This document shows positions 14,468 through 16,093 of a stretch of DNA of 64,000 nt, piece by piece; position 1 is the stretch's first letter; each line of letters opens with the position of its first letter. The notes under the pieces are model-generated. The model ran no database searches. It was not told the origin of the DNA and saw only the letters and a list, made by a program, of their open reading frames with translations. The position numbers were made by a program, and so were the translations under genes. The stretch spans positions 53,271 through 117,270 of the forward strand of contig SVHM01000003.1 in assembly GCA_015055815.1 (NCBI GenBank), given 5' to 3'. Source of the DNA: Clostridiales bacterium (GTDB lineage: Bacteria > Bacillota > Clostridia > Christensenellales > UBA1242).

Positions 14468-16093
14468 TTACTGATTAATCGTTGGTTTTTTAAGATTAGC
14501 TACTGCACCATTTACAAGTCCAACAAATAGTGGATGTGGTCTATATGGACGAGATTTAAATTCTGGGTGGAATTGGCTTGCTACAAAGAATGGATGGTCT
14601 TTGTATTCAATTATTTCTACCAAATTTTTATCACTATTTACACCCGACACAACCATACCCAAATCTTCGAATTTCTCTCTATATTCATTATTAAATTCGT
14701 ATCTATGTCTATGTCTTTCAATAATTTCTGGTTGTCCATATATTCTTCTAGCTAGTGTGCCATCTTTTAGGTTACATTTGTAATCACCAAGTCTCATTGC
14801 TTTTTCAAAGTTATTCCATTTGTTTTCTTCCATTTTGTTAATAACTGGGTTTTTCGTTTTTACATTAAATTCAGTACTTGTTGCGTCTTTTAATTTGGCT
14901 ACATTTCTAGCAAATTCAATTACAGATAGTTGCATACCTAGACAAATTCCAAGGAATGGAATTTTATTTTCTCTAGCATAATTAACTGCCAAAATCATTC
15001 CTTCAATTCCTTTATCTCCAAAGCCACCAGGAACGACAATTGCATCAAATGGTTTCAAGATATCTTTAACTCCGTACATCTCAATATCTTCACTAGATAC
15101 AAGAGTTATTTTTGCTTTATGTTTACTATTAAAACAAGCGTGTCTTAACCCTTCAGTTATAGAAAGATAAGAATATTGGTTTTCGGTATATTTACCAACA
15201 ATTGCAATATTTATAGCTGGCAAATCTTCATCCATACCATTTATCATTTCTTTCCATTTATTCAAGTTTAACGCATTACATGGCAAACTTAATTTTCCAA
15301 TTGCAATTCTATCTAAGCCTTCTTCTGCTAAATTTAGTGGTACTTCATAAATATTATTTGCATCTTTATTTTGAATAACAAAGTCTGAACTTTTCAAATT
15401 ACAAAACATTGCGATTTTTCTTTTTATATGGTCGCTCAAAGTAATATCTTTATTCGTTCTGCAAACTATTACATCTGGTTGAAGTCCGTATGAATTTAAA
15501 CATCTAACACTTGTTTGAGTAGGTTTAGTTTTTAATTCTTCTGTACTTTCCATGTATGGAACTAAAGTACAATGAATATGGATATAATTATCTTCAGTTA
15601 GTTCGTTTTGGAATTGTCTAACTGCTTCAAGATAAATAGCGTTATCCATATCTCCAACCGTTCCGCCAATCTCAATAATAACAACATCAGCGCTATCATC
15701 ATACGATTTCATACGTCTTTTGATTTCACTAGTCATATGTGGGACTTGTTGAATTGACATTCCTGTATTTTCATCATGCTTAGTATCGTTATTTATAAGC
15801 ATATCTGCAAGAATTTTTCCAGTAGTTAGATAATTATTTTTATCACTCTCAATATCTAGAAATCTCTCAATATATCCTAGTGCTAATGCACTTTCAACTC
15901 CATCATGAGAAACAAACACTTCGCCATACTGAATAGGGTTAATAAGACCTAAGTCAAAATTAAGTCTAGGGTCAAATCTTTGGAAATTAACTTTAATACC
16001 CCTTTCTATAAGTATTCTACCAAGTGCAACACCAGTAATGCCTTTACCTAAATTAGAAACAACACCACCAGTTATAAAAATATACTTACTCAT
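14468..16093 (-). CDS. CTP synthase-like protein with an intact glutaminase domain but a degenerate synthetase active site
   Basis: Likely start [13 protein letters not shown] at 16093 (RBS GGAGA). [21 protein letters not shown] and QFHPEF are present, but the canonical ETDLDLGHYERF reads [12 protein letters not shown] and the canonical QHGE reads QYGE. Confidence 0.85.
   Translation of the reverse strand: [541 protein letters not shown]

What the first reader, a model, noticed from the sequence alone, without database searches (positions are those of the whole stretch)
14468..16093. CTP-synthase homologue with dead-looking synthetase site but intact glutaminase triad
Seen: [41 protein letters not shown] where canonical PyrG has (K)xDPYxNxDPGTMSPxQHGEVFVTxDGxETDLDLGHYERF. 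Both Asp of DLD, the His of QHG and the His of GHY are replaced, while Cys (GICLG) and HPE are kept. Established: these Asp/His residues bind Mg-ATP/UTP, and CTPS forms regulatory filaments. Inference: a glutaminase or nucleotide sensor, a dominant-negative or filament-modulating partner of the true PyrG, or an amidoligase for another substrate.
Basis: partly seen in the sequence, partly recalled or inferred. Interest (0 to 1): 0.6.

Follow-up and report, generated by a model that had tools for sequence, protein, structure and literature searches.

The report
Rewired CTP synthase kept by selection
The only CTP-synthase gene of a small-genome gut bacterium has lost the residues that normally make CTP. 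It keeps an intact glutamine-splitting half and is still under selection, so it probably does a different, unknown job and would be mislabelled by automatic annotation.

Summary
Window 14468-16093 (-) encodes a full-length, 541-aa PyrG homologue. It scores 672 bits on TIGR00337 (cut-off 463).

Eleven positions are invariant in 139 relatives plus E. coli, and eight of them also in 91 more distant CTP synthases. All eleven are replaced: K40R, Y44R, P49L, H57Y, D70A, D72A (the Mg ligand), H75Y, G106D, T112S, E149D and D303Y. The GTP-coupling loops are also altered. The glutaminase triad and the NTP-binding loops are intact.

It is the only PyrG, and the only class-I amidotransferase, in a 98%-complete 1.3-Mb genome. 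It sits where canonical pyrG sits in sister species. It therefore cannot be a partner of a "true" PyrG.

It is not decaying:
- Two lineages at 77-78% identity carry the same changes.
- The rebuilt segment is as conserved (91-98%) as in real enzymes.
- Strain polymorphism gives pN/pS 0.11.

CTP synthesis looks dispensable here: 25 of 41 species genomes in the genus show no pyrG.

My best reading (about 0.55) is a repurposed, glutaminase-competent protein that no longer performs canonical UTP amination. Residual CTP synthase activity (about 0.25) needs a biochemical test. The new function is not resolved.

Earlier first-reader notes of this scan flagged this same stretch.

The parts
14468..16093 (-). 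Complete CDS of the PyrG homologue (541 aa, ATG start)
   Evidence: Pfam CTP_synth_N plus GATase. TIGR00337 672 bits against a cut-off of 463. Only PyrG hit in the genome.
15284..16093 (-). Synthetase (amidoligase) domain, residues 1-270. P-loop K17 (ec K18), D41 (ec D42), E141 (ec E140), GGTVGD and KTKPTQ are kept.
   Evidence: Among columns at least 97% conserved, 20 of the 22 changed ones lie in this half.
15869..15979 (-). Rebuilt catalytic and tunnel-exit segment, residues 39-75: K40R, Y44R, P49L, T51L, M52I, H57Y, D70A, D72A, H75Y, Y76I (E. coli numbering)
   Evidence: In the variant clade the corresponding ec 36-80 segment is 91-98% identical, against a median of 93% for canonical pairs.
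15755..15793 (-). L4 loop (ec 102-112) with a 2-aa insertion and R105H, G106D, D107E, Y108N, L109T, T112S
   Evidence: Role of the loop in GTP-dependent coupling: PMC9138612.
15173..15175 (-). Codon for Tyr307, which replaces ec Asp303 (ATP-ribose contact)
   Evidence: Asp312 of dmCTPS binds the ATP ribose (PMC8325340).
14513..15172 (-). Class-I glutamine amidotransferase domain (residues 308-527). Cys384, His509 and Glu511 (ec C379, H515, E517) are intact. R356K and T438A lie in the GTP lids.
   Evidence: Only 2 of 50 highly conserved C-half columns differ in the clade (D303, E310); in the window's own protein only D303 does.
16101..16105 (-). Ribosome-binding site GGAGA, 7 nt before the ATG
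   Evidence: Read directly.
16124..16152 (-). Promoter-like TTGACG-17-TAAAAT. This is a consensus match only; the number of such sites in the region is not above the shuffled expectation.
   Evidence: No Rfam leader or riboswitch found.

Best explanation
This is the in-place orthologue of pyrG, and its synthetase half has been rewired.

What is changed: the Mg ligand D72, D70, the phosphate-contacting K40 (now Arg), the tunnel-exit residues Y44, M52 and H57, the ATP-ribose contact D303, and the GTP-coupling loops L4, L11 and L13.

What is kept: the P-loop, E140, the uracil-binding D42, the triphosphate loop KTKPTQ, and the whole glutaminase site.

I conclude that it no longer carries out the canonical Mg-ATP-dependent 4-phosphorylation and amination of UTP coupled to GTP, but is maintained by selection for another activity. 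It most likely still binds nucleoside triphosphates and still hydrolyses glutamine.

Within this reading I give roughly equal weight to two options, and a smaller share to a third:
- (a) An amidotransferase that delivers ammonia to a rebuilt, still nucleotide-like acceptor pocket.
- (b) A nucleotide-gated glutaminase.
- (c) A non-catalytic role.

Shown here: residue losses, orthology, sole copy, purifying selection, and dispensability of pyrG in the genus. Inferred: loss of CTP synthesis, retained glutaminase activity and nucleotide binding, and the nature of the new role.
For: - Residue losses at positions invariant in 139 relatives plus E. coli, eight of them also in 91 more distant sequences.
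- Literature roles. D72 and E140 chelate the Mg bound to the ADP beta-phosphate (PMC4116302). K38 (ec K40) touches the transferred phosphate and K38A is nearly dead. H55 (ec H57) binds the UTP alpha-phosphate at the tunnel exit. F50-Y42-H55 stacking stabilises the tunnel and F50A is dead. D312 (ec D303) binds the ATP ribose (PMC8325340). L4, L11 and L13 are needed for GTP coupling (PMC9138612).
- Not decay. P0003 and P0004 (77-78% identity) share the changes. Within the clade the synthetase half is more conserved than the glutaminase half (83% against 74%, ratio 0.65-0.70, canonical median 0.69). Between the window protein and a canonical relative (P0005) the ratio is 1.38, above all 5,879 canonical pairs. 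The segment ec 36-80 is 91-98% identical.
- Twenty strain SNPs in the CDS comprise 14 synonymous and 6 non-synonymous changes, giving pN/pS 0.11 (p = 2e-6), with no indels or stops.
- Sole PyrG and sole class-I GATase in the genome.
- Positional orthologue of canonical pyrG.
- pyrG is dispensable in the genus. It was not found in 25 of 41 species genomes, including 14 of 27 high-quality ones. This was confirmed with the family model in five genomes and by inspecting the syntenic locus in four.
- The genome has two cmk genes and a uridine-kinase-family gene, and no pyrE or upp.
- The glutaminase Cys is easily lost in this group (19 of 72 rows, at least 8 changes on the tree), yet the variant clade keeps the full triad.
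Against: - No biochemical data exist.
- K40R and E149D are conservative changes. E140, K18, D42, GGTVGD and KTKPTQ remain, so a weak or unusual CTP synthase is not excluded.
- Constraint on the synthetase half equal to that of real enzymes is also what a working CTP synthase would show.
- No gene-neighbourhood clue points to a new substrate.
- The clade is tiny: three 90% clusters among 5.8 billion proteins.
- The SNP count is small and comes from low-depth metagenome contigs.
- No DNA of P0003 or P0004 was available for codon-based tests.
Confidence: 0.55

Rival explanations
1. It is still the cell's CTP synthase and works with a non-canonical catalytic constellation. For example, Mg could be held by E140, the phosphates and water, with Arg40 and Arg44 compensating, perhaps at lower efficiency and without GTP control.
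For: - It is the sole pyrG.
- Full length, above the equivalog cut-off.
- P-loop, E140, D42, [12 protein letters not shown], R211 and K223 are kept.
- The synthetase half is constrained like that of a real enzyme and pN/pS is 0.11.
- The genome has no de novo pyrimidine pathway and no upp, so nucleotide interconversion could matter.
Against: - Eleven invariant positions are replaced together, including the Mg ligand D72, plus H57, Y44 and D303.
- Single substitutions at neighbouring positions (K38A, F50A in dmCTPS) nearly abolish activity (PMC8325340).
- Many sister species live without any pyrG.
- The sister clade with similar losses is visibly relaxed, and one member also lacks Cys379.
Confidence: 0.25
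2. It is a gene on its way to loss. CTP synthesis became dispensable, inactivating substitutions accumulated, and the open frame simply has not been disrupted yet.
For: - pyrG is missing from most species genomes of the genus and is replaced by other ORFs at the same locus in four close relatives.
- The PyrG family here shows many kinds of erosion.
- The sister clade P0029/P0030 looks relaxed.
- Earlier first-reader notes list several other enzyme homologues with replaced catalytic residues in this genome. I checked only the Cls homologue.
Against: - Three lineages at 77-78% identity all keep intact frames and the same new residues.
- The rebuilt segment is as conserved as in working enzymes.
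- pN/pS is 0.11, with 1 non-synonymous against 6 synonymous SNPs in the synthetase half and no indels. The adjacent intergenic DNA carries several SNPs and indels.
- The glutaminase triad is fully kept although it is lost readily elsewhere in the genus.
Confidence: 0.12
3. It is a regulatory or dominant-negative partner that co-assembles with a true PyrG (one of the first reader's options).
For: CTP synthases form tetramers and filaments (PMC4116302), so a hetero-oligomer is conceivable in principle.
Against: No second PyrG, CTP_synth_N or class-I GATase domain exists in a 98.3%-complete genome, and the gene occupies the canonical pyrG locus.
Confidence: 0.03

Closest known systems
Canonical bacterial CTP synthase PyrG (TIGR00337 / PRK05380; E. 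coli 1S1M, T. thermophilus 1VCO)
   Same: - Same two-domain architecture and length.
- 43-61% identity to relatives in its genus and order; PDB matches with E about 1e-148.
- Same locus as in sister species.
- P-loop, E140, D42, [12 protein letters not shown] and the Cys-His-Glu triad are kept.
   Different: K40R, Y44R, P49L, H57Y, D70A, D72A, H75Y, G106D, T112S, E149D and D303Y, plus altered L4, L11 and L13 loops. Apart from H75 and P49, which vary in distant CTP synthases, none of these replacements occurs in any other CTP synthase examined except the partly eroded relatives named in this report (P0029/P0030, P0033, P0038, P0019, the G014 gene). T112 was compared only in the first set of 139 relatives plus E. 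coli.
Sister clade P0029/P0030 (metagenomic, 57% identical)
   Same: Groups with the variant clade (SH-aLRT 97). Shares H57Y and E149D, and the loss of Y44, P49, M52, D70, D72 and H75.
   Different: - Keeps K40, G106 and D303.
- The segment ec 36-80 is relaxed (82% identity, below the 5th percentile of canonical pairs).
- P0030 also lacks Cys379 and both have Q383E, so it looks like decay rather than re-use.
Glutaminase-dead PyrG forms in the same genus and order (e.g. genomes G001 and G010; second copies in G029 and G033)
   Same: Natural PyrG homologues in which one of the two active sites has been lost.
   Different: They are the mirror image. Cys379 is Gly, Ser or Ala while the synthetase residues are intact, so these are presumably ammonia-dependent CTP synthases.
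Engineered ATP-site mutant of yeast Ura7 (D70A, equivalent to ec D72A), Noree et al. 2014, PMC4116302
   Same: The same Asp-to-Ala change at the Mg-chelating position.
   Different: It is a single laboratory mutation, predicted to cripple ATP binding and tetramerisation, and it increased filament formation. Here the change is natural, accompanied by about 20 others, and conserved.
CTP synthase C-terminal region-related (seleno)protein, NF004836
   Same: A CTPS-type glutaminase domain used outside CTP synthesis.
   Different: That family lacks the synthetase domain. The present protein scores only 152 bits against a cut-off of 260 and keeps a conserved N-domain.

Membership tests
CTP synthase PyrG (TIGR00337 equivalog) | CTP_synth_N plus class-I GATase architecture, with a score above the curated cut-off | tested here: met
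   PF06418 300 bits and PF00117 129 bits. TIGR00337 672 bits against 463; PRK05380 688 bits against 308.
CTP synthase PyrG (TIGR00337 equivalog) | Phosphoryl-transfer residues Lys18 and Lys40 | tested here: not met
   K18 is present. K40 is Arg in all clade members, whereas it is K in every other CTP synthase examined except P0019, where it is Asn.
CTP synthase PyrG (TIGR00337 equivalog) | Mg-chelating carboxylates Asp72 and Glu140 | tested here: not met
   E140 is present. D72 is Ala, and D70 is also Ala. Role of these residues from PMC4116302.
CTP synthase PyrG (TIGR00337 equivalog) | UTP/CTP site: Asp42 (base), Asp147 and Glu149 (ribose), Lys187-Thr-Lys189, Gln192, Lys223 (triphosphate) | tested here: inconclusive
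   All are present except E149D. V115Q in the base pocket is new.
CTP synthase PyrG (TIGR00337 equivalog) | Ammonia-tunnel exit: Pro54, His57, Val60, with the Tyr44/Met52 stack | tested here: not met
   P54 and V60 are kept. H57Y, Y44R, M52I and P49L are changed. Roles from PMC8325340 and PMC9138612.
CTP synthase PyrG (TIGR00337 equivalog) | GTP-activation elements: L4 (104-110), L11 (Gly352, Arg356, Gly360), L13 (Thr438, Arg440) | tested here: not met
   L4 is rebuilt with a 2-aa insertion. R356 is K, G or N across the clade. T438 is A or S. G352, G360, R440, R468 and R470 are kept.
CTP synthase PyrG (TIGR00337 equivalog) | Glutaminase triad Cys379-His515-Glu517 and glutamine-site residues | tested here: met
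   GICLGMQ, HPE, G352, Q383, E403 and R470 are all present.
CTP synthase PyrG (TIGR00337 equivalog) | Catalyses UTP + ATP + Gln to CTP | not testable with these tools
   Needs an enzyme assay or complementation of a pyrG mutant.
Decaying gene / pseudogene | Relaxed selection: pN/pS near 1, frame disruptions, loss of site-specific conservation | tested here: not met
   pN/pS 0.11 with no indels or stops. Three intact lineages. Conservation profile like working enzymes.

The most novel reading that the evidence does not exclude
A natural CTP synthase orthologue has been converted into a different glutamine amidotransferase. The glutaminase still feeds ammonia into a rebuilt, Mg-Asp-free acceptor pocket (R40, R44, Y57, Y75, D106, Q115, Y303). 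That pocket acts on a nucleotide-like substrate other than UTP, or uses different activation chemistry. This would be a new enzymatic activity derived from one of the most conserved enzymes known.
Probability: 0.22. Interest if true: 0.75.

Novelty: new variant of a known kind. Interest (0 to 1): 0.5.

Why it matters
- **A rare case.** PyrG is among the most conserved enzymes, and I found no description of a natural synthetase-site-dead form in a small set of full-text searches. A sole-copy orthologue that lacks the Mg ligand and tunnel gate yet is kept by selection would be either a new activity built on the CTPS scaffold or evidence that the accepted catalytic constellation is not obligatory. 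Either is testable with a simple complementation and enzyme assay.
- **Annotation.** The protein passes the equivalog thresholds. Pipelines will therefore call it CTP synthase, and metabolic models of these uncultured gut Clostridia will wrongly infer (or wrongly trust) de novo CTP formation.
- **A natural experiment.** In this genus PyrG shows every fate side by side: intact, glutaminase-dead, synthetase-rewired and deleted. That is useful for studying how a bifunctional enzyme comes apart when salvage makes it dispensable.
- **Limit.** The variant clade is very small.

Tried and rejected
- **The look-up of encoding contigs was closed.** I could not fetch the DNA or neighbourhoods of P0003, P0004, P0029 or P0030, so no codon-based branch tests were possible.
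- **Metagenome-contig scan with the protein.** It found only canonical relatives at 50% identity or less.
- **Two genome contigs pattern scans**, one for the clade A motif and one for the clade B motif, found nothing.
- **Sequencing runs.** No RNA holder is listed, so there is no statement on expression.
- **Rfam scan of the locus.** Only a chance-level hit; no pyrG leader or riboswitch.
- **Gene neighbours give no functional clue.** They are ABC exporters, tyrS, a small repeat protein, a hypothetical protein, an M20 deacylase and a Cls homologue.
- **GlsA-type glutaminase** is absent from the whole genus, so it does not discriminate between readings.
- **"Overall rate burst" idea weakened.** Relative to the neighbouring M20 gene, G000's PyrG divergence (40% against 14%) has about the same ratio as canonical pairs (22% against 7%). 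The unusual feature is where the changes fall, not the total rate.
- **Nearest relatives are unresolved.** TyrS, M20 and GyrB disagree on which species are closest to G000, so I do not claim a species-tree order of events.
- **Papers not held.** The Endrizzi 2005 structure paper could not be read, so the roles of D70 and H75 remain undocumented here.
- **Structure and complex prediction were not run.** The tools return no coordinates, and a dimer exceeds the size limit.

Full report
**1. What is there**

The minus-strand ORF 16093-14468 encodes 541 aa and begins [10 protein letters not shown]. A GGAGA ribosome-binding site lies 7 nt upstream, with a promoter-like TTGACG-17-TAAAAT further upstream. 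No known RNA element is present.

The protein is a complete two-domain PyrG. Pfam gives CTP_synth_N (residues 3-270) and GATase (308-527). TIGR00337 scores 672 bits against a cut-off of 463. The best solved relatives are T. thermophilus and E. coli CTP synthases, with E about 1e-148.

**2. Which residues are changed**

I aligned the protein with E. coli PyrG (taken from NC_000913), 120 database homologues and 26 genome-derived relatives. Against 139 canonical sequences plus E. coli, eleven columns are 100% conserved. All eleven are replaced in this protein by residues never seen there: K40R, Y44R, P49L, H57Y, D70A, D72A, H75Y, G106D, T112S, E149D and D303Y.

In a second, more diverse set of 91 CTP synthases from many phyla, K40, Y44, H57, D70, D72, G106 and E149 are unchanged, and D303 is unchanged except for a single D-to-E. 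H75 and P49 vary there, and T112 was not checked in that set.

The distribution of changes by domain:

| Conservation threshold in canonical set | Synthetase half changed | Glutaminase half changed | Fisher p |
|---|---|---|---|
| At least 97% | 20 of 90 | 2 of 50 (D303, an ATP contact; E310, changed only in P0003/P0004) | 0.004 |
| At least 85% | 25 of 134 | 5 of 91 | 0.005 |

Published structures assign roles to most of these positions:
- D72 and E140 chelate the Mg bound to the ADP beta-phosphate (PMC4116302).
- K16 and K38 of fly CTPS (ec K18, K40) touch the transferred phosphate, and K38A is almost inactive.
- D40 (ec D42) binds uracil.
- H55 (ec H57) contacts the UTP alpha-phosphate at the tunnel exit.
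- The F50-Y42-H55 stack (ec M52, Y44, H57) stabilises the tunnel, and F50A is dead.
- D312 (ec D303) binds the ATP ribose (PMC8325340).
- The L4 loop 104-110, the L11 lid (G352, R356, G360), the L13 loop (T438, R440), T51 and M52 are needed for GTP-dependent coupling (PMC9138612).

In this protein L4 carries a 2-aa insertion with G106D, D107E, Y108N and L109T. R356 is Lys, T438 is Ala, T51 is Leu and M52 is Ile.

The following are retained: K18, D42, E140, GGTVGD, K187-T-K189, Q192, R211, K223, and the full glutaminase site (G352, C379, Q383, E403, R470, H515, E517).

**3. It is the only copy and the true orthologue**

The genome is 1.31 Mb in 15 contigs and 98.3% complete. It has one PyrG hit, one CTP_synth_N hit and one class-I GATase hit, all in this gene.

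The order tyrS, repeat protein, hyp181, pyrG, M20 deacylase, cls is shared with sister species that carry canonical pyrG: G013, G024, G042 and G048. This is therefore neither a paralogue nor a transfer, and there is no "true PyrG" for it to modulate.

**4. It is not decaying**

*(a) The changes are shared across lineages.* The 5.8-billion-protein collection holds three 90% clusters with this signature: P0002 (99% identical), P0003 (78%) and P0004 (77%). All carry the same replacements. A search restricted to residues 20-120 finds only these three.

*(b) The tree shows a long stem and short crown.* The clade has a stem of 0.43 substitutions per site and crown branches of about 0.1. It is sister (SH-aLRT 97) to P0029/P0030, which share H57Y and E149D and have also lost Y44, P49, M52, D70, D72 and H75.

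*(c) The conservation profile matches working enzymes.*
- Within the crown, the synthetase half is more conserved than the glutaminase half: 83% against 74%, a divergence ratio of 0.65-0.70. That matches canonical pairs at the same distance (median 0.69).
- Between the window protein and a canonical relative (P0005) the ratio is 1.38, above the maximum of 1.22 among 5,879 canonical pairs.
- The rebuilt segment ec 36-80 is 91-98% identical within the clade. The canonical median is 93%.
- In the sister clade the same segment is 82%, below the 5th percentile. P0030 has also lost Cys379.

*(d) Strain polymorphism shows purifying selection.* The gene occurs in animal gut and faecal metagenomes of 16 studies. 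Contigs from three runs of different studies give 20 distinct SNPs in the CDS: 14 synonymous and 6 non-synonymous. This gives pN/pS 0.11 (binomial p = 2e-6). The synthetase half has 1 non-synonymous against 6 synonymous SNPs. There are no indels or stops in the CDS, while the adjoining intergenic DNA has several SNPs and three indels.

Caveats: the contigs have low depth, the numbers are small, and strains are related.

**5. Context: pyrG is dispensable and eroding in this genus**

- Of 41 species genomes in the genus, 25 show no pyrG, including 14 of 27 high-quality ones.
- The family model confirms absence in five genomes that are 95-99% complete.
- In G044, G015, G004 and G054 the syntenic locus holds two unrelated ORFs instead of pyrG.
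- The window's genome has two cmk genes and a PRK/uridine-kinase-family gene. It has no pyrE, no upp and no type-I glutamine synthetase.
- Among 72 close homologues, 19 have lost the glutaminase nucleophile Cys379 (to Gly, Ser or Ala) while keeping the synthetase residues. This requires at least 8 changes on the tree.

Against this background, full retention of the triad in the variant clade suggests that its glutaminase is used.

**6. A correction to my own first impression**

Relative to the neighbouring M20 gene, the total divergence of G000's PyrG is not exceptional. M20 is 86% identical and PyrG 60% between G000 and canonical species. For two canonical species the figures are 93% and 77%. 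What is exceptional is where the changes fall.

TyrS, M20 and GyrB disagree about which species are closest to G000. I therefore make no claim about the order of loss events.

**7. Interpretation**

| Reading | Probability |
|---|---|
| Functional, selected protein that binds nucleotides and hydrolyses glutamine but no longer does canonical, GTP-coupled, Mg-ATP-dependent UTP amination | about 0.55 |
| Working but unorthodox CTP synthase | about 0.25 |
| Gene on the way to loss | about 0.12 |
| Partner of another PyrG | about 0.03; effectively excluded |

Within the best-supported reading, I cannot separate an amidotransferase with a rebuilt acceptor pocket from a nucleotide-gated glutaminase. 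The strong constraint on the rebuilt pocket, which the sister clade lacks, slightly favours a site that still does something.

The working-synthase rival is supported by sole-copy status, the retained P-loop, E140 and UTP loops, and the strong constraint. Only biochemistry can decide.

**8. Comparison with known families**

By architecture and HMM score the protein is a PyrG family member. It fails four defining catalytic features:
- K40.
- D72.
- The H57 gate.
- The GTP-coupling loops.

I file it as a new variant of a known kind, not as a CTP synthase in function.

A small set of full-text searches turned up no description of natural synthetase-site-dead CTPS orthologues. The nearest analogue is the engineered yeast D70A mutant (PMC4116302).

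Earlier first-reader notes of this scan flagged the same stretch and several other enzyme homologues with replaced catalytic residues in this genome. I checked only the Cls case. It lacks both HKD histidines, and the first motif is likewise replaced in two sister species (the second was not checked there), so that feature is old and conserved rather than recent decay.

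Noticed in passing
Loci L010 (G001), L011 (G010), L009 (G014), L021 (G033), L022 (G029); proteins P0013, P0015-18, P0020, P0026-28, P0031, P0032, P0034: Many PyrG homologues of this genus and order have lost the glutaminase nucleophile Cys379 (to Gly, Ser or Ala, some also His515) while keeping all synthetase residues. This holds for 19 of 72 rows and needs at least 8 changes on the tree. G029 and G033 carry such a form as a second copy beside a canonical one. These look like naturally ammonia-dependent CTP synthases in gut bacteria.
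   Followed up: partly
window 19297-20805 (+): A cardiolipin-synthase homologue (TIGR04265 195 bits, below the cut-off of 290) has no HxKxxxxD motif. The two sites read NYKRLCVID and TTKLIIID. The first motif is replaced in the same way in G013 and G041, so the feature is conserved in the genus.
   Followed up: partly
L056-L059 (G044, G015, G004, G054), between hyp181 and the M20 gene: At the syntenic pyrG locus these four species have two unrelated ORFs (about 197-246 aa, divergent) and no trace of PyrG. The hyp181-pyrG pair is also inverted in G000 relative to G013.
   Followed up: partly
G000:C15:30838-31470 and G000:C7:9335-9973: There are two full cytidylate kinase (cmk) genes in a 1.3-Mb genome that lacks pyrE, upp and any other class-I amidotransferase (so no guaA or carA).
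   Followed up: no
window 16325-17401 (+): The M20 ArgE/DapE-like deacylase divergent from pyrG is unusually conserved in the genus (85-86% against 56-61% for PyrG). By eye, some expected metal-ligand positions look substituted (GISEMKGG, IIPTPT). This was not verified by alignment.
   Followed up: no
window 11749-12993 against 16325-17401 and 19297-20805: Markers on the two sides of pyrG disagree on the nearest relatives. TyrS is closest to the pyrG-less G044 group (80-83%). M20 and Cls are closest to the pyrG-bearing G024/G013 group (85-86% and 66%). This suggests recombination near this locus, or rate differences.
   Followed up: no
window 42615-53414 (+): A giant ORF of 3,599 aa; not examined.
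   Followed up: no
window 26344-26769 (+): A 141-aa cytidine/deoxycytidylate deaminase-family protein (PF00383, 42 bits; below the cdd equivalog cut-off). It may be relevant to C-to-U nucleotide interconversion in this salvage-dependent organism.
   Followed up: no
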